Shown here: piece after piece, positions 6,986 to 61,676 of the stretch
Numbering within the stretch: the first letter of the stretch is position 1
How the letters are laid out: each line of letters begins with the position of its first letter
IMG/VR virus record: IMGVR_UViG_3300007747_000008
Span: 109,828 to 173,827 of that record
Direction: 5' to 3' (one strand)
DNA: 64,000 nt
Source: a virus
Taxonomy: Duplodnaviria; Heunggongvirae; Uroviricota; Caudoviricetes
Translations under genes and position numbers: made by a program
The notes under the pieces: model-generated
Databases searched by the model: none
What the model saw: only the letters and a program-made list of their open reading frames with translations
What the model was told of the DNA's origin: nothing

Positions 6986-7014
6986 GGGACAAACTATTCA
7001 CTTTGTGATATAAT
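6986..7014 (+). promoter_or_regulatory. GGGACA-N17-TGTGATATAAT promoter
   Basis: GGGACA at 6986-6991 and TATAAT at 7009-7014 with a 17-bp spacer. Confidence 0.5.
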
Positions 7015-7043
7015 AAAGAACGTACATAAAACGAGGTTTACAC

Positions 7044-7436
7044 ATGTCAATTATTTTTCATCTAGTTGGGATTTGCTTTTTTGCCGCTCTTGCCGCATCA
7101 GGATTCCTTCTCACTTCTCAAATTATATATTGGGTTCTCATAACAATTATGGGGGTACTAGCGTGGTTCAACTATACCAATGTTACTCGAAATCTTAAAC
7201 GCATCAAAGATGGTAAAAAACTAACACCTGAAATGCAAAAAATGTTACCGTATATAGAAAATGTGGATTTCAATAGTAGGGTTGTTCACCTACTTTTCGC
7301 AAATGGCATTCACGTTGGACTAGTACTTGCACTTATTAATGCACCAGTACTAGCATGTGCCATTACACTATTATTATGGTTGAATGTTGAAAATGTACTT
7401 AAATTCAAGGATCTAATCAAAAAATGTCATCAATGA
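7044..7436 (+). CDS. Small polytopic membrane protein
   Basis: Several hydrophobic helices. Confidence 0.5.
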   Translation: MSIIFHLVGICFFAALAASGFLLTSQIIYWVLITIMGVLAWFNYTNVTRNLKRIKDGKKLTPEMQKMLPYIENVDFNSRVVHLLFANGIHVGLVLALINAPVLACAITLLLWLNVENVLKFKDLIKKCHQ

Positions 7437-7920
7437 TATTAGCAGTTGATAAAAATAACGGCATTGGTATTAATAATACTATACCTTGGCATAGTACTGC
7501 CGATTTCAAACACTTCAAGGAAGAGACTGCCGGTAAGATAATCATTATGGGCTATAACACTTGGAAATCTCTTCCTAAAAAACCACTACCCGGTAGATTG
7601 AATATTGTCTTACTATCAAGAGACTATATTAATCGAGAGGAAGTTGATAAAAACCCTTCAGTACTTTTTCTACCTGAAGAATCAATTTGGCAAATCATTA
7701 GTAATAATCCTGATTGTGTGGTAATTGGTGGTGCTCGTCTTTATAGGACTGCATTACCCTTTGTTGATACCGTAATACTAAGTAAAATTAGTGGTGATTA
7801 CCAATGTGACACACACTTTGATATACACAGTGATTGTAATGTGCATCTTGAACTGGGATTGGTCAAGATGTTGGAAGATGGAACAATAGTAGAATATTGG
7901 AATAATATAAAAGGACTTTA

Positions 7921-7921
<1 letters not shown>
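7424..7921 (+). CDS. frd: Dihydrofolate reductase
   Basis: ILAVDKNNGIG..NTIPWH...FK....GKIIIMGYNTWKSLP.KPLPGR.NIVLS matches FolA motifs. Confidence 0.85.
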
Positions 7922-8351
<430 letters not shown>

Positions 8352-8355
<4 letters not shown>

Positions 8356-9698
8356 GTAACATCACGCTTACGGACAAGCAACAAGAGATATACGACGATT
8401 TTATTGAACGCGTACACAACTGGCCGGGACGTTCTGAATGTGTCTTAGTTGGCTATGCTGGTACAGGAAAAACCACACTAGTGGCAGAGATCGTTGATAG
8501 CCTTTATAAGGGCTACAATATTGCAGTAACATCACCAACACATAAAGCAAACTCAGTAATTCGAAAAATGCTTATGCAAAACGTTGGTCTTTCACCACAA
8601 GATGCACAAGTTAGTACTATTCACTCTTTCTTAGGTTTGAAGTTAGTTTATGAAAAGAGTCGTCAAGTACTAAAACATGATCCCCAATCAAAAAATAGTA
8701 CTTCGATGGTTGATGTACTTATTGTTGATGAATGTTCAATGATTTCTGATGAGATGTATCAGCACATTATTGACCAAATGTATCGTGTGCGTCGAGCAGT
8801 GATTTTTGTAGGTGATTCATGTCAGTTACCACCGGTCGAATCTGAGGGTACAATGGGTGAATCAAAACTAAGCCCAACATTTGATGTAGAAACTAAGTAT
8901 GAACTTACTGAAGTACTACGCCAAGCGTTGGATAACCCAATCATAAGCATTGCAACATCAATTCGTGAATGCATTGGTACTAATGGAGATCCATTAGCAA
9001 TTTTGGATACAACTTATGGTCTAGATACTATCATCCCAATAGACGATGAACAAGTTTTCTTGGACGTGTATAAGGAAATGATTTTAGAACACAAAGGTTC
9101 AGCCAGTAAGATCTTTGACTTCGTTCAGGAAAATAAAATTATTGCTTATACTAATTACCGTGTTAGTTTGTCTAACATTTACATCAGAAGTGAATTATTT
9201 GATAAACATCAAGATGTAGAATTTGTTAAAGGTGAACCTATTGTGTTTGATACGGTAACCGAGAACTGTCCATATATGAATCAGGAAATTATTCAATGTC
9301 CTGAAGTTCGTAAAGAGGCATTCTTAGGTATTGATTGCTGGCAGTTCAAACTTCCTAACGGTAATTATATTTTAGGTGTTGGTCCTGAATCTAAAATGGG
9401 ACTCGATGACTACTTAGATAAGTTGATTAAAAAGATTGAACGTAAGGATATGAACCCTCTTACTAAACGTGCTTACCAATGGCAAGACTATTATATAATC
9501 AAAAATAAGATTAACATCATCAACTATCCATATGCAACAACAGCACATAAATCACAGGGTAGTACTTTTGATAATATTTGGTTCGATACCGATTTCATTG
9601 AACGTATTCGTAATAATGACACAAAGTGTCGAATTATCTATACAGCTATGACGCGTCCACGATATAATGTAATGTTCCGAAAAAATGGAATGTTCTAA
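8352..9698 (+). CDS. dda: Dda-like SF1B DNA helicase (RecD family)
   Basis: Walker A GYAGTGKTT, AVTSPTHKA, STIHSFLG and the DE box VLIVDECSM. Confidence 0.85.
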
Positions 9699-9901
9699 TG
9701 AAAAAAGAAGAAGAATACGAGTACCAACCGCATAAATTTATTTTTTGGAAAACGATTGGTAAACAATATTGTGTACACTGTGGTTTAGTTAACACAACTA
9801 ACGATTTTGCACGCTGGGCCGTGACTAAAGGGTGTATGAATGAATTACACCCATCTTTCCGCAGTGCAAGAAAGAAATACACTAATCGTTTTGATTTTTA
9901 A
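9698..9901 (+). CDS. Small Cys/His-containing protein
   Basis: ORF translationally coupled by a TAATG overlap. Contains CVHCG...C. Confidence 0.4.
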   Translation: MKKEEEYEYQPHKFIFWKTIGKQYCVHCGLVNTTNDFARWAVTKGCMNELHPSFRSARKKYTNRFDF

Positions 9902-9939
9902 AAATAAATAATAAAAAGTGTTCTTTATGGAGAAATAAG

Positions 9940-10482
9940 ATGAACAATTTATTCAAGGCTTTCACAATCAAAGTTCCCGGTCAGGATCTTGATGATAAAC
10001 GTTTTTTCGAGTACTCAGATTTTGATTCCGAAAATATGACCACACCTACTGATGCAGAAGTGTTAGCTAAAGCAATTGCTTATACTCGTATGCAACAGAT
10101 CAAACGCAAGCTATCCGAACTTACTGTACCAATCTATTGTACTGTTGAATTTGATACAGAAGGTACAGCAGCAACTATCCCAACTGATGCAACTATCACC
10201 GTTGGATATATTAGCTACGAGCCATTTGCGAGTACCGTTTCGCCGGTTCCTAAAACGGATGATGAACAAATCACTGCTTCTGAAACTGTAATTAAAGGAA
10301 TCATTGATGCTGCATTGGCATCATCACTAGTTCAAGAAATGGCAGCAGTTCAGAAAATCACCAGTCGCACTATCACTCCACTACTAGCAACCACCACGCT
10401 ACAACGTGACGTGTATATGGATTACATTGATGTGCCAGCATTAACTGGTGTTGTAAGTACTGTTGAATTCGTTAAACTATAA
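9940..10482 (+). CDS. Hypothetical protein
   Basis: ORF with coding-like composition. Confidence 0.5.
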   Translation: MNNLFKAFTIKVPGQDLDDKRFFEYSDFDSENMTTPTDAEVLAKAIAYTRMQQIKRKLSELTVPIYCTVEFDTEGTAATIPTDATITVGYISYEPFASTVSPVPKTDDEQITASETVIKGIIDAALASSLVQEMAAVQKITSRTITPLLATTTLQRDVYMDYIDVPALTGVVSTVEFVKL

Positions 10483-10490
10483 TTTTTTAC

Positions 10491-10697
10491 ATGGAGTCTA
10501 TTGACATGGAACAAAAACCATTCTATGATCGTTTCATTGAAAGCCAAGATGCTTTCACGAAGGTCATTTATGAACTTGAGCAAATGATCGCTCAAGCACC
10601 AAACGCCCGAACCCGCTCACAAGCTGAGCTAGCAAAGAATCAGTTAATTCAGGTTCAACAAATTGCAGAAGTATATCGTAAACATCATACACAATAA
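10491..10697 (+). CDS. Hypothetical small protein
   Basis: ORF. Confidence 0.45.
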   Translation: MESIDMEQKPFYDRFIESQDAFTKVIYELEQMIAQAPNARTRSQAELAKNQLIQVQQIAEVYRKHHTQ

Positions 10698-10701
10698 GGG
10701 G

Positions 10702-10730
10702 TTGACACAACCCTTTAAATGTCATACAAT
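10702..10730 (+). promoter_or_regulatory. Sigma70-type promoter TTGACA-17-TACAAT inside an inverted repeat
   Basis: TTGACA at 10702-10707 and TACAAT at 10725-10730. The -35 lies inside AAGGGGTTG/CAACCCTTT. Confidence 0.5.
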
Positions 10731-10766
10731 GACAGCAACTTAAAACGACTGGAGTCACAAATTAAT

Positions 10767-11273
10767 ATGAAAGAAATCATTGCCAATAAAGAAATCAAAG
10801 CTAAATCCGTCCGTCTAGTAACTGACGCAGGCAGCAATGTGGTGGCAATTAGCGAAGCTCAAAACCGTGCTGACGCTTTAGGACTTGACCTTGTTCAAGT
10901 GAACGCTGGTGACGTACCAGTAGTTAAAATCATTGATTTGAATAAATTCAAATTTGAACAAAAACAAGCTGATAAAGAAGCACAACGTAAGCAACGTCAA
11001 AACATGACTCAAGTAAAAGAGGTTCAATTCTCTTTTAAAACTCAGGAAAACGATTTAAAAGTGAAAGAGAAATCAGCTTCTAAATTCCTTTCCGACGGTA
11101 AACAAGTACGCGTCGTTATGGCAGTTGAAGGTCGCATTGCTGGCAATCAAACATTACTTGAAAAAAATACATCATTCTTGAAACAGTTTGTAGAACGCCT
11201 TGGTGAAGTCGAATTCGTACAGAAAGTTGAAGTACAAGGTAAAAAGGCAACCTGTGTAATCAAGACAAAATAA
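10767..11273 (+). CDS. infC: Translation initiation factor IF-3 homologue
   Basis: Collinear with bacterial IF3, e.g. VRLV...G..LG..S..EA...A...GLDLV.V......PV.KI.D..KF.....K and the C-domain QVKE..F......D...K. GGAG Shine-Dalgarno at 10751. The six-frame ORF starts further upstream at 10719. Confidence 0.85.
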   Translation: MKEIIANKEIKAKSVRLVTDAGSNVVAISEAQNRADALGLDLVQVNAGDVPVVKIIDLNKFKFEQKQADKEAQRKQRQNMTQVKEVQFSFKTQENDLKVKEKSASKFLSDGKQVRVVMAVEGRIAGNQTLLEKNTSFLKQFVERLGEVEFVQKVEVQGKKATCVIKTK

Positions 11274-11283
11274 GGAATTAGAC

Positions 11284-11835
11284 ATGAAACAACTTGAAGT
11301 GCAAGAAGTATTCTCACTAGACTCTTATAGTGTTATTAAAGCAAAATACGGTGAAAGCAACTACTACGTTGCTGGCAAACATGACATTACTCAATATGTC
11401 CAAGCGGTAGCCCGTTCGCAAGAACAACAAACTGTAAATAAAACAGTACTAGAACTTGGCTTGCAGTTGTTTTTCCGTCATAACCCACAACAAGATGTAC
11501 TTAGTGTTCCAAAGTTTGACTTAGTACTACTTGATGATAAAAAAACATCAGCAGAATTTGTAATGGAAATGTGCATGGATCTATTTCACTTCAGTGAAGA
11601 ACGGGCAATCGAAGCCGTTACCGCATTGAATAGCGAAAAACATGCATACACAGTCGGAACATTCAGTGAAGAAATGTGTATTACATACTGTGCGATGTTT
11701 GAGAATGCAAATGCTCAATTATCACAAAACATTGGCTACGATTATGTACCAAGCCCACTAAAGCCGCAAAGTTATGAAGCAGCTTTACAGACACTTGAAA
11801 CATTAATTCGTCGCGATTACCCGAACGATATCTAA
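11284..11835 (+). CDS. Protein with a C-terminal ClpS-like domain (Clp protease adaptor)
   Basis: VPKFDLVLLDDKKTSAEFVMEMCMDLFHFSEERAIEAVTALNSEKHAYTVGTFSEEMCITYCAMFENA aligns with the ClpS core. Confidence 0.65.
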   Translation: MKQLEVQEVFSLDSYSVIKAKYGESNYYVAGKHDITQYVQAVARSQEQQTVNKTVLELGLQLFFRHNPQQDVLSVPKFDLVLLDDKKTSAEFVMEMCMDLFHFSEERAIEAVTALNSEKHAYTVGTFSEEMCITYCAMFENANAQLSQNIGYDYVPSPLKPQSYEAALQTLETLIRRDYPNDI

Positions 11836-11842
11836 ACAAATA

Positions 11843-14005
<2,163 letters not shown>

Positions 14006-14006
<1 letters not shown>

Positions 14007-16618
14007 TGCCAAGTAAATCTAAAGCACAAGCTAGATTCATGGCAGCAGCAGCACATAACCCAGACTTTGCTAAAAAGGCTGGGATTAGTACTGGTGCAGC
14101 TAAAGAATGGAATCAAGCAGATAAAAAACAAGGAACTCTCAAAAAGGGTTCAGATAAACCAGAACATGTAACTGAAGAAGAGATACTTGATGAAGCAAGT
14201 GGTGTTGGTATCTTTCCAGTACCGCCAAGTTCTTTGAAACTAATGCAAAAATATGCTTCTTCTATTGTATTGACTTATGCTTATAAATCATTCCAACAGA
14301 TGCAGAAAAATACAGATGATGATTTAGATCAACTTGTTGCTTCTAAGATTCTGCCGTTCTTAAAACGTTTCCAACAAAAATATGGTGCCCAAGTACTGAA
14401 TGATGCTAGTCTGCGTAAGTATGTGAATCAAAGTATTAAGATGCCAATTGACCATGCTGCCATTATGCGTGAGTTACCTAAGTCTATGCAAAATGAAAAA
14501 GTACAATCTTTTATACAAAAAATGAATGTATTCGTAACGTTTGACACTAATTATTATGACAACAGAGCTGGCGGTCACAAAGAGACAGTAAATGATAATA
14601 CATCTGATATTGTGTTATCATTAAAACCCGAATACTATCAATTCACCACAACAAATGGTACTGACGGAATCCAAAAGACAATGCAAAGTATGGATTACTT
14701 TTTGGGTTCACTTGAACATGAAATGCAACATGCATTCCAACAAATAGTGACTAAAAGACTTAGTTCTGCCAAAGATGCCAACGTAGCGAGAAAAAAAGAT
14801 TATAGTGATATGCAAGATTCTTATCATGCAAGTGGTGTTGAATTTGGTCCACAAACAAAAGATATGATAAACGCTGGAATTTTATGGTTAGATAACCAAA
14901 AAGATAATAACGAATTAAGTGGTAATATTAACCGTGATATTCAAGGTGCAATCAAACATGCATTTGAACGTTTATCTCATGGTCAAGGTAAGGTGTATCA
15001 AGCCTTAAAAAATTATAAAGAAGATGCTAATGCCAAAAAGCATATGGTTTTAATTTACAAAGGACTTGTTAAACATTATCAACAAATGGAAAACGAAGTT
15101 GATTCAGAATTGGATTTAGAACCTAAAGATGTTGATGGTGGCGAGTCTCGTTTATACAATTCTACAACAAAAGGACCAGACCAAGATGCAGATAAAAATG
15201 ATCCGATGGTTCAACTTTATCGTGCTATGGAATCTAAAAACAATTTAAAACCAAGTGACGTTGAGGAAGAACGTATACATGGAAAAAGACCAGATGACTA
15301 CACTAATCCATACAACAACCTTCATTCAATTGTTTATCACCTAGATGATGGTGGAATAGTACGGTTCATGAAACATAATGGTAATATTCTGATTACTGCG
15401 TGGGAGAGTCGTTTTTCAGAAAGTGAACCTATTAATATCGATGTTCCTGTTGATAAAATACAAATTATGTTGGACTATATTACTTGGTTTAAATCATTTA
15501 ACATGACCGACCGTTTTATCAAAGAACTAGCTCACAAGATAGACGGTTCAGAAATGGACATTGAAGAAATTGCTGATGCTTTTGGTGGATGGTACAATAA
15601 TGCTATTAAGAAAATTGGTGCACAACCCGAAGGTAAAAATCTAGATGCTTCACTTGATGAAGGTACGCTTTATATTCGATTCCAAGGGCTTCGTTATCCA
15701 ATATATATGCAAGCTGGATATAGAGATGGGGTTCAAATTGACAATGCAGAATCATACAATACCATAACTGGAATTACCTATCAGGATTTAGAACAAGTAA
15801 TGACTCGTCTATTCGAGATTTATCTAGAAAGTACCGATAGACAATTTAACAGGATATTCAAAAATATGGATAAAAAATTAACACCCGATAGTCTTGAAAA
15901 TATATGGGAATATGTTCAAGAATCATCCAAAAAGCCTGTAGAAGAATCAAGTATGCGTGGTTTTATGGATTTAGTACAGGATGCTGAAATAGCTGATGAT
16001 ATTGATCAAGCTGACAAGAGTACTCAAATTAGTAGAGATACCCAAAATAAAAAATTAGGTAAAACTACCAATTCACTAAATCAACTTGGTGAAGATGAAG
16101 AGTTGAATGAGATGCCACAGCGTTTTGATGCGTTTGCCAACCAAGATCGTGATGAATTTGTTGATAAGTCTGCTGAAATGACAGGTAAGCATAATATGGT
16201 TCCTTTTGCTCAACATGACGGATTTGATGTCATGAGAATTAAAAATGGTTCAGGATTTATTGCATACGATAAACAAGGTAAGCAAGTAGCATTATTAAGT
16301 GGTCATATAAGTAATAATGCGGTCGTTGGTGTACCTAATGTATTCGTAGAAAGTGCTGTTGCAGCAAAAAGCAATGTTAAAGGTGTTGTGTATCAAATGT
16401 ACATGGATATCTTAAATGCTGGATATTCAATACTTAGTGATGGTTTACATAGTGATGATGCAATCAAGTTCTGGACTAGATTGCTAACAAATCATACTGT
16501 ATATGTTGTAGGGGACGGTGAAGTACTAACACGTGCAACTCCAGAGAAAGTACACAAGTATTGGAGTGATGATGAATATAGCCCTAGTGCTGAGTTGAGG
16601 TTACTCTTGACGAAATAA
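14006..16618 (+). CDS. Large protein (870 aa): DUF3008-like N-terminus plus an HExxH domain, paralogue of 12414-14006
   Basis: The N-terminus SKAQARFMAAAAHNPDFAKKAGISTGAAKEW resembles DUF3008. LEHEMQHAFQ and YHASGVEFGPQT follow. TAATG coupling to the upstream gene. Confidence 0.55.
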
Positions 16619-20156: not shown

Positions 20157-20188
20157 TAAAGGATACCTCGTGTATCCTTTATTGTTAT
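20157..20188 (+). terminator. Hairpin AAAGGATAC-CTCGT-GTATCCTTT (weak T-run)
   Basis: 9-bp stem after the gene 52 stop. Confidence 0.4.
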
Positions 20189-20192
20189 AAAT
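20185..20192 (+). promoter_or_regulatory. TATAAATA (T4-type late promoter motif)
   Basis: Exact TATAAATA lies 36 nt upstream of the 795-aa ORF. Confidence 0.4.
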
Positions 20193-20227
20193 ACGGTAGC
20201 TTTTAAACATTTTGGAGAATAAAACAT

Positions 20228-28207: not shown

Positions 28208-28236
28208 TTGACACCTCATTATAATCCAGCTATAAT
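28208..28236 (+). promoter_or_regulatory. Sigma70-type promoter TTGACA-17-TATAAT
   Basis: TTGACA at 28208-28213 and TATAAT at 28231-28236. Confidence 0.5.
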
Positions 28237-31571: not shown

Positions 31572-32254
31572 AACAACGATTAGATTCAACGATTGATATA
31601 GAAACTCTAGCCATTCCAGAAACCAGTGGTTATGATATTGTAATTCCAAACTACGCTATTGTTCGAGTACCTGAAACACCTGAAACTTATGAGTTGGAAT
31701 GGATGTATGTACAAATGCCAATCCAGCCACAGTTAGATAAAGGTTTAGCGGTATCAGCTTCGTGTATGTCCTTCTGGTTTGATCGATGTGCAGAATTTCA
31801 ACCAAAAGCACTTGATGAAATGAAGAAATCATTTAAAGGTACAGTTCCTACAATTCGACGTAGTTATTTAAACGGTATCGAATTACCATGTGATGACCCT
31901 TCATTGGAAGTTGAGAAATTCATTAATGGTGATGATAATTTGTATGATGGTAAAATTTGGGGAAATGGGTGCAACTTCGATTGTAGTATTCTCCAAGCCA
32001 ATCATCTCAAGATGTTCAACAACGCTAAAATGTGGCACTACGCAGCCCCACAGAACGCAAGAAGCCTTAAAGACTTGCTAAGTGAAGACGAGCGTGATGA
32101 AATGGATCGCATCGTGGAGGACTATCTAGGGCGGTTTGAGACAACCACCCGTGTAATGCACGGAATGGCAAACCTAGAACTTCATCACCCATTGTATGAT
32201 GCGGCACGTGAAGCATTGCAGGTTTCATATTGCCGGAATATGAAAGCAGGTTGA
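31568..32254 (+). CDS. dexA: DexA-like 3'-5' exonuclease (DEDD family)
   Basis: N-terminal IDIETLA (Exo I motif), with GNGCNFDCSIL and HHPLYDA downstream. Confidence 0.55.
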   Translation: MKQRLDSTIDIETLAIPETSGYDIVIPNYAIVRVPETPETYELEWMYVQMPIQPQLDKGLAVSASCMSFWFDRCAEFQPKALDEMKKSFKGTVPTIRRSYLNGIELPCDDPSLEVEKFINGDDNLYDGKIWGNGCNFDCSILQANHLKMFNNAKMWHYAAPQNARSLKDLLSEDERDEMDRIVEDYLGRFETTTRVMHGMANLELHHPLYDAAREALQVSYCRNMKAG

Positions 32255-32279
32255 CAGATATAATTGGGTGGGGTATAAT
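32251..32279 (+). promoter_or_regulatory. Sigma70-type promoter TTGACA-17-TATAAT overlapping an inverted repeat
   Basis: TTGACA at 32251 and TATAAT at 32274. The inverted repeat is GGGTGGGG/CCTCACCC. Confidence 0.45.
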
Positions 32280-54886: not shown

Positions 54887-54915
54887 TTGACAGGGGATGA
54901 ACAATCCCCTATAAT
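54887..54915 (+). promoter_or_regulatory. Sigma70-type promoter TTGACA-17-TATAAT with an inverted repeat in the spacer
   Basis: TTGACA at 54887 and TATAAT at 54910. GGGGAT/ATCCCC lies between the -35 and the -10. Confidence 0.5.
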
Positions 54916-61397: not shown

Positions 61398-61583
61398 ACC
61401 GAAAGGTAATATAAAAACGCTGGCGAAGTGGATTCATAACAGCAAACATATAAAATCTTATGAATTTTATATCTTAGGATATATAACGCAGTGACACGCT
61501 GCGGATAATTTAAAAGTGTATGCATAGGTGAAAGATGTGTTGTACGCGGCCTATGTAGCATACATAATGAATCCAGTATTAGG
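61398..61583 (+). ncRNA. Structured leader or small RNA of about 190 nt between the promoter and tRNA-Ser
   Basis: No ORF. Hairpins TTACC-GAAA-GGTAA, ATAAAAT..ATTTTAT and CGCAG-TGACACG-CTGCG. Confidence 0.3.
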
Positions 61584-61676
61584 TAGATTGGCAGAGTCTG
61601 GCTTATTGCACCAATCTTGAAAATTGGCAGCCGTTAATAGCGGCTCGTGAGTTCAAATCTCACATCTACCTCCAAA
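61584..61676 (+). tRNA. tRNA-Ser (anticodon TGA), type II
   Basis: Acceptor GGTAGAT/ATCTACC, anticodon arm CCAAT-CTTGAAA-ATTGG, a long variable arm, T-loop TTCAAAT, and an encoded CCA. Confidence 0.8.

What the first reader, a model, noticed from the sequence alone, without database searches (positions are those of the whole stretch)
10702..11273. Phage-encoded full-length translation initiation factor IF-3 with its own sigma70-type promoter
The 169-aa product is collinear with bacterial IF3 over both the N-domain (VRLV..G..LG..S..EA...A...GLDLV.V......PV.KI.D..KF) and the C-domain (QVKE.QF......D...K......FL..G..V.V). A TTGACA-17-TACAAT promoter embedded in an inverted repeat lies just upstream. 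Phage-borne IF3 is unusual. It could bias start-codon and initiation fidelity toward phage mRNAs, many of which here use TTG/GTG starts and ATGA/TAATG couplings. It could alternatively replace host IF3 targeted during infection.
Basis: partly seen in the sequence, partly recalled or inferred. Interest (0 to 1): 0.6.

Follow-up and report, generated by a model that had tools for sequence, protein, structure and literature searches.

The report
Jumbo-phage copy of initiation factor IF3

Summary
Confirmed. Window 10767-11273 (+) encodes a 168-aa (not 169) two-domain IF3: Pfam IF3_N and IF3_C, NCBIfam infC equivalog 112 bits against a cutoff of 60, and an AlphaFold model that matches ribosome-bound bacterial IF3. 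All universally conserved IF3 residues are kept, and dN/dS against the nearest ortholog is 0.06. The TTGACA-17-TACAAT promoter at 10702-10730 is real in sequence. A promoter-like site sits at the same place in five of the seven other lineages read; it is predicted, not measured.

The window is a RaK2-like jumbo phage, about 78% nucleotide identity to Salmonella phage Munch and Klebsiella phage fENko-Kae01. IF3 is a core gene of this group. It and its two neighbours each hit 72 records with matching genus counts. It is already in PHROG 9787 and in papers from 2017, 2020 and 2021. The fENko-Kae01 ortholog was detected by mass spectrometry.

Additions here: unlike bacterial infC, the gene starts with ATG. 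It appears to form an early two-gene unit with a ClpS-like adaptor. That unit ends at a conserved hairpin carrying a late-promoter motif and the next gene's ribosome-binding site.

Most likely it acts as IF3 on host 30S subunits. Interest is low to moderate.

The parts
10695..10717 (+). Hairpin TAAGGGGTTG-ACA-CAACCCTTTA, directly after the stop of the upstream 68-aa gene. It contains the -35 hexamer. It may act as a weak terminator for the upstream gene.
   Evidence: the repeat finder I1: 10-nt arms, 90% complementary. RNAfold -11.6 kcal/mol; an equivalent 10-bp hairpin is predicted in Munch at -9.8.
10702..10730 (+). Predicted sigma70-type promoter: TTGACA (10702-10707), 17-nt spacer, TACAAT (10725-10730). 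The expected transcription start is near 10737.
   Evidence: 11 of 12 consensus matches. The pattern occurs 4 times against 0.25 expected, all on the + strand. Similar sites at the same position: TTGACA-17-TATAAT in Munch and fENko-Kae01, TTGACA-17-TATATT in Hallingskeid, TTTACT-17-TATAAT in RaK2, TTGACT-16-TACAAT in GAP32. No transcript data.
10751..10754 (+). Shine-Dalgarno GGAG, 12 nt before the ATG.
   Evidence: Read from the sequence. CTGGAGT is also present in Munch, fENko-Kae01 and Hallingskeid, and (T)GGAG in RaK2, 121Q, GAP32 and XaC1.
10767..11273 (+). IF3 homolog coding sequence: 168 aa plus TAA, ATG start.
   Evidence: dN/dS 0.058 against Munch and 0.075 against RaK2. AlphaFold pLDDT 81.8. 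Foldseek top hits are full-length bacterial IF3.
10785..10982 (+). IF3 N-terminal domain (aa 7-72).
   Evidence: Pfam IF3_N covers residues 7-72, profile positions 2-70 of 70. Model against 1tif: TM 0.80. The equivalents of E. coli R25 and R66 are kept as R16 and K54.
10938..11003 (+). Lys/Gln-rich helical linker (aa 58-79), two residues longer than in E. coli, Thermus and Geobacillus IF3.
   Evidence: The model shows helix 58-79. Alignment.
11007..11267 (+). IF3 C-terminal domain (aa 81-167), the ribosome-binding domain.
   Evidence: Pfam IF3_C covers residues 81-167, profile positions 1-85 of 86. Strand-helix-strand-helix-strand-strand order in the model. TM 0.80 against 1tig. The equivalents of E. 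coli K94, E95, D106, K110, F117, G121, G132, R133 and G167 are kept.
11284..11835 (+). ClpS-like adaptor gene (183 aa; ClpS domain at aa 76-143 behind a 75-aa N-terminal extension). It starts 10 nt after IF3 and is probably co-transcribed with it.
   Evidence: Pfam ClpS 6.4e-08. PHROG 15940. PDB ClpS match. Hits 72 phage records with the same genus counts as IF3's RaK2-like hits.
11840..11893 (+). Conserved long hairpin followed by seven T, ending the IF3/ClpS-like unit. The loop carries GATAAATACTC (late-promoter motif). The 3' arm carries the GGAG ribosome-binding site of the next gene (KTSC domain, ATG at 11894).
   Evidence: RNAfold -17 to -26 kcal/mol across window, Munch, Hallingskeid, RaK2, 121Q, GAP32 and XaC1. 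Arms and loop motif are invariant in the four-phage alignment. One compensatory pair, in 121Q. The ATAAATA late motif was described for phage CBB.

Best explanation
The gene encodes a working IF3. The phage probably transcribes it early with host RNA polymerase from a sigma70-type promoter, together with the adjacent ClpS-like adaptor gene.

The protein most likely binds the host 30S subunit the way bacterial IF3 does. The C-domain would sit on the platform and the N-domain would contact the elbow of the initiator tRNA. This would raise or maintain IF3 activity in the infected cell: keeping 30S subunits free, speeding formation of initiation complexes, and enforcing AUG plus Shine-Dalgarno initiation. 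That is the kind of start site nearly all genes of this phage have.

The phage gene starts with ATG, not the AUU that E. coli infC uses for autoregulation. It should therefore escape that negative feedback. Extra IF3 activity would then be expected to repress translation of the host's own infC, so the phage factor would progressively take over.

Shown here: homology, fold, residue conservation, purifying selection, the promoter sequence and its conservation, and synteny. Shown elsewhere: the ortholog's protein is made. Inferred: 30S binding, early timing, escape from autoregulation, and any benefit to the phage.
For: - **Family and fold.** IF3_N plus IF3_C and the infC equivalog at 112 bits against a cutoff of 60. 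The model has the canonical topology and matches 30S-bound IF3 (5lmn_X, 5lms_X, TM 0.64-0.67) and the separate domains (1tif, 1tig, TM 0.80).
- **Conserved residues.** Every position conserved in at least 80% of about 130 diverse IF3 sequences is retained in the 39-member phage clade. These include the tRNA-contact residues R25 and K/R66, and K110, R133 and G167 in the C-domain.
- **Selection.** dN/dS is 0.06-0.075 although synonymous sites are near saturation.
- **Core gene.** IF3 and two clade-restricted neighbours each hit 72 records with matching genus counts.
- **Expression.** The fENko-Kae01 ortholog was detected by LC-MS/MS.
- **Promoter.** The motif is enriched in the window and a similar site is found at the same position in five of seven other lineages read.
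- **ATG start.** ATG is annotated in all RaK2-like orthologs read, and Munch has an in-frame TAA two codons upstream.
- **Phage start codons.** They are about 96% ATG, so a high-fidelity IF3 would not penalise phage genes.
- **Genomic setting.** The gene lies among replication and nucleotide-metabolism genes.
Against: - No experiment on any phage IF3 was found in the searchable literature. Ribosome binding and activity are inferred.
- The phage clade has its own changes that could alter function. These are a 2-residue deletion in the N-domain hairpin that holds E. coli Q33, C65V, Y70L, K79Q, loss of the conserved Glu after the Gly-Arg motif (E. coli E134), and a linker 2 residues longer.
- The promoter is predicted only. 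The overall count of promoter-like sites in 7000-15000 is no higher than in shuffles.
- In phage CBB the region that contains the IF3 gene was reported to carry a divergent promoter type rather than the classic early type.
Confidence: 0.7

Rival explanations
1. An IF3 with altered specificity. It would occupy the IF3 site on 30S but with changed start-site or tRNA proofreading. Initiation would then be biased toward phage mRNAs instead of simply being supplemented.
For: Substitutions fixed in the phage clade lie at or near functional regions. These are the N-domain hairpin deletion at the Q33 contact, Y70L, E134 variable, and a linker 2 residues longer. The protein is only 35% identical to E. 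coli IF3.
Against: The proposed beneficiaries do not exist. Phage genes are about 96% ATG with ordinary Shine-Dalgarno sequences. All universally conserved IF3 residues are kept. Some of the differences fall within natural bacterial variation: E. coli R99 is Ser in Geobacillus and R129 is Met in Thermus.
Confidence: 0.12
2. A replacement cassette. The co-transcribed ClpS-like adaptor would redirect host Clp proteolysis against host factors, possibly host IF3, and the phage IF3 would substitute for what is lost.
For: IF3 and the ClpS-like gene are adjacent, 10 nt apart here. They hit 72 RaK2-like records each with matching genus counts. They are adjacent in every RaK2-like locus read and in Xanthomonas phage XaC1, and near-adjacent in Vibrio phage 2.275.O. 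In Atu_ph07 and Phosso, IF3 sits next to a gene annotated as a Clp ATPase.
Against: There is no evidence that host IF3 is degraded during infection. In the alignment to E. coli ClpS, Asp36 is Lys and His66 is Asn. From memory, the N-degron pocket lies in this region, so canonical substrate recognition is doubtful. The adjacency may simply reflect common descent of these phages.
Confidence: 0.1
3. A factor for ribosome rescue or reactivation. It would mainly split idle or hibernating 70S/100S ribosomes in slow-growing hosts so the phage can translate. This is close to the suggestion of Iyer et al. 2021.
For: Iyer et al. propose that IF3 and the neighbouring KTSC-domain protein act in ribosome rescue or in supporting phage translation. 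Related phages also carry peptidyl-tRNA hydrolase and a hibernation-factor homolog. Anti-association is a core IF3 activity (established knowledge).
Against: The KTSC gene appears to be separated from IF3 by a terminator-like hairpin with a late-promoter motif. That argues against co-regulation. There are no data on infection of stationary-phase cells.
Confidence: 0.06
4. A decaying or functionless captured host gene.
For: None found.
Against: dN/dS is 0.06. The ORF is intact in all orthologs read. It appears to be a core gene across the clade. The ortholog's protein was detected. There is no DNA similarity to any of 5,426 E. coli genomes.
Confidence: 0.01

Closest known systems
Phage IF3 of RaK2-like jumbo phages (PHROG 9787; for example Munch AZU98288.1, fENko-Kae01 WNV47451.1, RaK2 YP_007007308.1, 121Q gp47, GAP32_313, CBB_318)
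   Same: An ortholog of the same length (166-169 aa), in the same syntenic slot: Dda helicase, small ORFs, IF3, ClpS-like, KTSC domain, virion protein. It shares the ATG start, the upstream sigma70-like promoter and the downstream hairpin. Identity is 86.5% over the aligned region to Munch, about 58% to RaK2 and about 54% to 121Q.
   Different: A new sequence. The best match anywhere is 90% (unnamed metagenome proteins), and the surrounding DNA is only about 78% identical to the nearest deposited genomes. The -10 element is TACAAT where Munch has TATAAT.
Bacterial IF3 (infC; TIGR00168; structures 5LMN, 8JSG, 1TIF, 1TIG)
   Same: The same two-domain architecture with a helical Lys-rich linker, the same fold, and all universally conserved residues.
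   Different: - Only 35% identical to E. coli IF3.
- ATG start, where E. coli infC has the autoregulatory AUU (established knowledge).
- Not in a thrS-infC-rpmI-rplT context.
- Lacks the E. coli N-terminal tail.
- 2-residue deletion in the N-domain hairpin and a linker 2 residues longer.
IF3 genes of other jumbo or huge phages (Vibrio phage 2.275.O, Agrobacterium phage Atu_ph07, Sinorhizobium phage Phosso, metagenomic huge phages of Al-Shayeb et al. 2020)
   Same: Full-length IF3 in phages larger than 300 kb. The Vibrio phage keeps the helicase, IF3, ClpS-like, KTSC order.
   Different: Identity is 34-39%. The Vibrio phage has a ribosomal protein S21 gene inserted after IF3. Atu_ph07 and Phosso have a gene annotated as a Clp ATPase next to IF3 and no ClpS-like gene in the stretches read. 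Annotated starts are TTG (Vibrio) and GTG (Atu_ph07).

Membership tests
Translation initiation factor IF3 (infC, TIGR00168 / Pfam IF3_N + IF3_C) | Sequence match to the full-length equivalog model above its curated cutoff | tested here: met
   TIGR00168 at 112.2 bits against a cutoff of 60, covering residues 5-164. IF3_N at 66.4 against 26.9 and IF3_C at 52.1 against 34.8.
Translation initiation factor IF3 (infC, TIGR00168 / Pfam IF3_N + IF3_C) | Two globular domains (alpha/beta N-domain; beta-alpha-beta-alpha-beta-beta C-domain) joined by a long helical, Lys-rich linker | tested here: met
   The AlphaFold model (pLDDT 81.8) has strands 14-18, 23-27, 41-46 and 52-56 with helix 28-38. Linker helix 58-79 follows. 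The C-domain has strand 83-89, helix 94-109, strand 113-119, helix 128-143 and strands 148-157 and 160-167. Foldseek top hits are IF3 chains; 1tif and 1tig give TM 0.80.
Translation initiation factor IF3 (infC, TIGR00168 / Pfam IF3_N + IF3_C) | Retention of the universally conserved residues, including the initiator-tRNA contacts (E. coli R25, R/K66) and C-domain basic residues | tested here: met
   N16, I19, V24, R25, A42, A46, D52, L53, P63, K66, D69, K72, K94, E95, D106, K110, F117, G121, G132, R133 and G167 are all kept in the window protein and the phage clade. Y75 is Phe in the window and Tyr in the clade consensus. The roles of R25 and R66 come from PMC9723500.
Translation initiation factor IF3 (infC, TIGR00168 / Pfam IF3_N + IF3_C) | Binds the 30S subunit, blocks subunit association and proofreads the start codon and initiator tRNA | not testable with these tools
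   Needs biochemistry or genetics. No published test of any phage IF3 was found.
Bacterial infC gene organisation (a feature of the cellular gene, not of the protein family) | Non-canonical AUU-type start codon giving IF3 autoregulation, in a thrS-infC-rpmI-rplT context | tested here: not met
   The start is ATG, and Munch has an in-frame TAA two codons upstream. The neighbours are a Dda helicase and ClpS-like and KTSC genes, not thrS, rpmI or rplT.
RaK2-like jumbo-phage IF3 (PHROG 9787) | Full-length match to the phage family profile and the same syntenic position | tested here: met
   PHROG 9787 at 1.2e-59, residues 1-168 against profile positions 1-167 of 168. The same gene order is seen in Munch, fENko-Kae01, Hallingskeid, RaK2, 121Q, GAP32 and XaC1.

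The most novel reading that the evidence does not exclude
IF3 and the ClpS-like adaptor form one early host-takeover cassette. The ATG-initiated phage IF3 would be immune to IF3 autoregulation. It would drive down host infC translation through the host's own AUU feedback and replace host IF3. The ClpS-like partner would reprogramme Clp proteolysis of host translation or other factors. A phage would then swap a core initiation factor rather than merely supplement it.
Probability: 0.12. Interest if true: 0.6.

Novelty: already known. Interest (0 to 1): 0.25.

Why it matters
Phage-encoded translation factors bear on how far large phages remodel the host ribosome. IF3 is the factor that sets start-site fidelity, so a phage copy could in principle reprogramme initiation.

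For this window, though, the gene is just the local ortholog of a core gene that is already annotated and discussed for RaK2-like phages. What remains open is the function, which I could not find tested anywhere.

This analysis sharpens that question in three ways:
- The phage copy keeps every universal IF3 residue.
- It lacks the AUU autoregulatory start.
- It appears to be inherited, and probably transcribed, together with a ClpS-like adaptor.

Tried and rejected
1. **AUU start, as in E. coli infC.** The window has an in-frame ATT at 10761, only 6 nt after GGAG. I rejected it because Munch and fENko-Kae01 have an in-frame TAA at the corresponding place, and all orthologs are annotated from the ATG.
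2. **184-aa form starting at ATG 10719.** Rejected. That ATG lies inside the promoter spacer, the extension is not conserved, and tblastn and PHROG similarity begin at or after the ATG at 10767.
3. **IF3 packaged in the virion**, suggested by the 'identified with LC-MS/MS' note. Rejected as evidence for packaging. The fENko-Kae01 sample was an ultrafiltered lysate in which 220 proteins were found, including DNA polymerase and other non-structural proteins. It shows expression only.
4. **Recent capture from the host.** Rejected. Identity to E. coli IF3 is 35%, there is no DNA match in 5,426 E. coli genomes, and the nearest relatives are other phage or metagenome proteins.
5. **The palindrome around the -10 element as an operator.** I did not find it in Munch. 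It is probably chance.
6. **A second 11-of-12 promoter-like site at 10501-10529.** It overlaps the start of the upstream small gene. I did not pursue it.
7. **Rfam scan of the whole window.** Only tRNAs were found.
8. **A phylogeny placing phage IF3 among bacterial phyla.** Not attempted.

Full report
**What is there**

The region holds an ORF on the + strand that ends at 11273. The longest form starts at 10719. The conserved start is the ATG at 10767, preceded by GGAG at 10751-10754.

PHROG 9787 aligns end to end from this start. Orthologs in Salmonella phage Munch and Klebsiella phage fENko-Kae01 are annotated from the same ATG. Munch carries an in-frame TAA two codons upstream.

**Is it IF3?**

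Yes.
- Pfam finds IF3_N (residues 7-72, 2.6e-18) and IF3_C (residues 81-167, 6.2e-14), both above their gathering scores.
- The NCBIfam equivalog model TIGR00168 (infC) scores 112 bits against a cutoff of 60.
- Solved IF3 chains from Thermus, E. coli and Geobacillus match over essentially the full length.
- An AlphaFold model built on 39 clade members has mean pLDDT 81.8. It shows a four-stranded N-domain with one helix, a long linker helix (58-79), and a strand-helix-strand-helix-strand-strand C-domain.
- Its best Foldseek hits in the PDB are 30S-bound full-length IF3 (5lmn_X and 5lms_X, TM 0.64-0.67). The isolated domains 1tif and 1tig both give TM 0.80.

I aligned the 39 phage-clade proteins with about 130 diverse IF3 sequences from the representative search and three structure-derived bacterial sequences. 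Every position conserved in at least 80% of the general set is kept in the phage clade.

The kept positions include E. coli R25 and K/R66. Those residues contact the initiator-tRNA elbow and affect start-codon fidelity (PMC9723500). They also include K94, E95, D106, K110, F117, G121, G132, R133 and G167 in the C-domain.

**Is it a live gene?**

Against Munch and fENko-Kae01, pS is 0.63 and pN is 0.076, so dN/dS is about 0.06. Against RaK2 it is 0.075.

The paper shows that sample was a concentrated lysate in which 220 phage proteins were detected, including non-structural ones. This demonstrates expression, not virion packaging.

**What phage, and how common is the gene?**

The 2.6 kb around the gene is about 78% identical to Salmonella phages 7t3, SE_PL, Munch and PHA46 and to Klebsiella phage fENko-Kae01. 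All are jumbo phages of 337-360 kb.

A tblastn search with the protein hits 92 of 50,697 phage records, and most of the listed hits are annotated as IF3. The two clade-restricted neighbours, the 180-aa protein and the ClpS-like protein, each hit 72 records. Their genus counts are Escherichia 34, Klebsiella 10, Salmonella 8, Erwinia 8, Yersinia 4, and 2 each for Serratia, Xanthomonas, Cronobacter and Pectobacterium. These match IF3's counts for every genus that its summary lists. I did not compare the record lists one by one. IF3 therefore looks like a core, vertically inherited gene of the RaK2-like group.

The remaining IF3 hits fall into two kinds:
- Other very large phages: Vibrio phage 2.275.O, Atu_ph07, Phosso and a 636-kb metagenomic phage.
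- Some records that are really bacterial DNA. 'Acinetobacter phage MD-2021a' shows thrS, infC and rpmI in order.

**Origin**

Identity to E. coli IF3 is 35% over 127 aligned residues. There is no DNA match in 5,426 complete E. coli genomes.

I searched 1.84 billion cluster representatives. The closest sequences outside the clade's own cluster are 38-45% identical. Most are unnamed metagenome proteins, several on contigs of 330-620 kb. Vibrio phage 2.275.O is among them. No close cellular donor is visible.

**Already described**

- The RaK2 and GAP32 records annotate the gene.
- The CBB paper (2017) lists IF-3 homologs in GAP32, 121Q, PBECO4 and RaK2.
- Al-Shayeb et al. 2020 list IF1 and IF3 among huge-phage translation genes.
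- Iyer et al. 2021 mention IF3 together with the KTSC-domain protein of Munch, which is the ortholog of window 11894-12433.
- The Sharanji paper (2025) says the function in phages cannot be stated.

I found no experimental study of any phage IF3. The library searched is limited to open-access papers.

**The promoter**

The overall count of promoter-like sites in 7000-15000 is no better than in shuffles. However, the strict pattern TTGACA-N17-TANAAT occurs four times in the window, all on the coding strand, against 0.25 expected.

A similar site lies at the same place in other lineages, although synonymous sites are near saturation between them:

| Phage | Upstream site |
|---|---|
| Munch, fENko-Kae01 | TTGACA-17-TATAAT |
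| Hallingskeid | TTGACA-17-TATATT |
| RaK2 | TTTACT-17-TATAAT |
| GAP32 | TTGACT-16-TACAAT |
| 121Q | no good two-hexamer match; only a TATAAT was seen |
| XaC1 | none in its 30-nt gap |

The -35 element lies in a hairpin that directly follows the upstream gene's stop. A similar hairpin is predicted in Munch. The small palindrome around the -10 element was not found in Munch. The promoter is predicted, not measured.

**The transcription unit**

The ClpS-like gene (11284-11835) starts 10 nt after IF3. The 58 nt between it and the next gene form a long hairpin:
- The 5' arm is AACTCCAAGGT.
- The 3' arm is AACCTTGGAGT. It is followed by seven T and then the ATG of the KTSC-domain gene at 11894.
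- The 3' arm contains that gene's GGAG ribosome-binding site.
- The loop contains GATAAATACTC.

The arms and the loop motif are invariant in the window, Munch, Hallingskeid and RaK2. They are also present in 121Q, GAP32 and XaC1, with one compensatory pair in 121Q.

ATAAATA is the late-promoter motif proposed for this phage group. It resembles the T4 late promoter TATAAATA. The only other ATAAATAC in the window (7 expected) is a perfect TATAAATA. It sits after a terminator-like hairpin and 33 nt before the ATG of a 795-aa gene.

My reading is an inference. It rests on the arrangement known for T4 gene e, which I cite from memory. IF3 plus the ClpS-like gene would be an early two-gene unit. Its transcripts would either stop at the hairpin or, if they read through, carry the next gene's ribosome-binding site masked. 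Late transcripts starting inside the hairpin would be translatable.

**Start codons**

This does not hold.
- In the syntenic 50 kb of fENko-Kae01, 74 of 77 annotated CDS start with ATG and 3 with GTG.
- All 33 annotated CDS in the local neighbourhoods of four RaK2-like phages start with ATG.
- My own heuristic calls in the window give 104 of 111 ATG with an ATG-favouring score.
- With no codon preference they give 96 of 115 ATG. Only 3 of the non-ATG candidates have a Shine-Dalgarno core of at least 4 nt.

ATGA and TAATG-type overlaps do occur: 18 of about 100 adjacent pairs. From general knowledge, that is ordinary for phage genomes.

**Mechanism**

The best-supported view is that this is a functional IF3 acting on host 30S subunits. 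From established IF3 biology:
- IF3 keeps subunits apart.
- It accelerates formation of the initiation complex.
- It rejects non-AUG starts, leaderless starts and non-initiator tRNA.
- E. coli infC limits its own translation through an AUU start.

An ATG-initiated phage copy would not be subject to that feedback. It would be expected to repress host infC. This fits a phage whose genes are almost all AUG plus Shine-Dalgarno.

The phage clade also has its own fixed differences. These are a 2-residue deletion in the N-domain hairpin around E. coli Q33, C65V, Y70L, K79Q, a variable residue at E134, and a linker 2 residues longer. Altered specificity therefore cannot be excluded.

The constant pairing with a ClpS-like adaptor keeps a 'degrade and replace' model alive as a minority possibility. 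So does the pairing with a gene annotated as a Clp ATPase in Atu_ph07 and Phosso. However, in the alignment to E. coli ClpS, Asp36 is Lys and His66 is Asn. Nothing shows that host IF3 is a target.

**Verdict**

The thing itself is an expected core gene of a known phage group and is already annotated and discussed in the literature. Interest is low to moderate. It rests on the unanswered functional question, not on this instance.

Noticed in passing
window 11840-11893: A conserved long hairpin plus seven T lies between the ClpS-like and KTSC genes. The loop holds a late-promoter-like GATAAATACTC. The 3' arm holds the next gene's GGAG ribosome-binding site. The arms are sequence-invariant across phages whose flanking proteins are only 40-60% identical. 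It resembles the T4 gene e type of early/late translational switch (cited from memory).
   Followed up: partly
window 11284-11835: A ClpS-like protein with a 75-aa N-terminal extension appears to be inherited together with IF3. Each hits 72 RaK2-like records with matching genus counts. In the alignment to E. coli ClpS, Asp36 is Lys and His66 is Asn, so canonical N-degron binding is doubtful.
   Followed up: partly
L005:3485-3730 (Vibrio phage 2.275.O): In this distant jumbo phage the same helicase, IF3, ClpS-like, KTSC module has a ribosomal protein S21 (RpsU) gene inserted directly after IF3. IF3 there is annotated with a TTG start.
   Followed up: no
L006:1643-3465 (Atu_ph07) and L008:1631-3477 (Phosso): In two Rhizobiaceae jumbo phages, IF3 lies directly downstream of a gene annotated as a Clp protease ATP-binding subunit (about 420 aa), near topoisomerase II. 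The Atu_ph07 IF3 is annotated with a GTG start.
   Followed up: no
window 28208-28236, 32251-32279, 54887-54915: Three further perfect TTGACA-N17-TATAAT sites, all on the + strand. With the IF3 site that makes 4 against 0.25 expected. They are likely host-polymerase promoters of this phage.
   Followed up: no
window 20160-20227: A terminator-like hairpin (AAAGGATAC...GTATCCTTT) is followed by a perfect T4-type late promoter, TATAAATA. It sits 33 nt upstream of the ATG (20228) of a 795-aa gene. The fENko-Kae01 gene at the corresponding position was detected by mass spectrometry.
   Followed up: partly
window 11894-12433: A KTSC-domain protein (Pfam 2.3e-13), ortholog of Munch AZU98290.1. Iyer et al. 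2021 mention it alongside IF3 as possibly translation-related. Here it appears to be separated from IF3 by the hairpin and late-promoter element.
   Followed up: partly
L010 (CAKLQH020000014.1, 'Acinetobacter phage MD-2021a'): This record in the phage collection shows thrS, infC and rpmI together with fadD and entS. It looks like a bacterial chromosome contig. Several short 'phage' IF3 hits of 2-7 kb may be similar, so the figure of 92 phage records with IF3 is an overcount.
   Followed up: partly
window 61582-61674: ARAGORN calls a fourth tRNA, Ser(tga), here. The Rfam gathering-threshold scan did not report it. The other three tRNAs (40699, 43051, 49624) are found by both tools.
   Followed up: no
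window 10758-10769: An in-frame ATT at 10761 lies at ideal spacing (6 nt) from GGAG, just before the ATG. It recalls the AUU start of E. coli infC but is not conserved in Munch or fENko-Kae01.
   Followed up: yes
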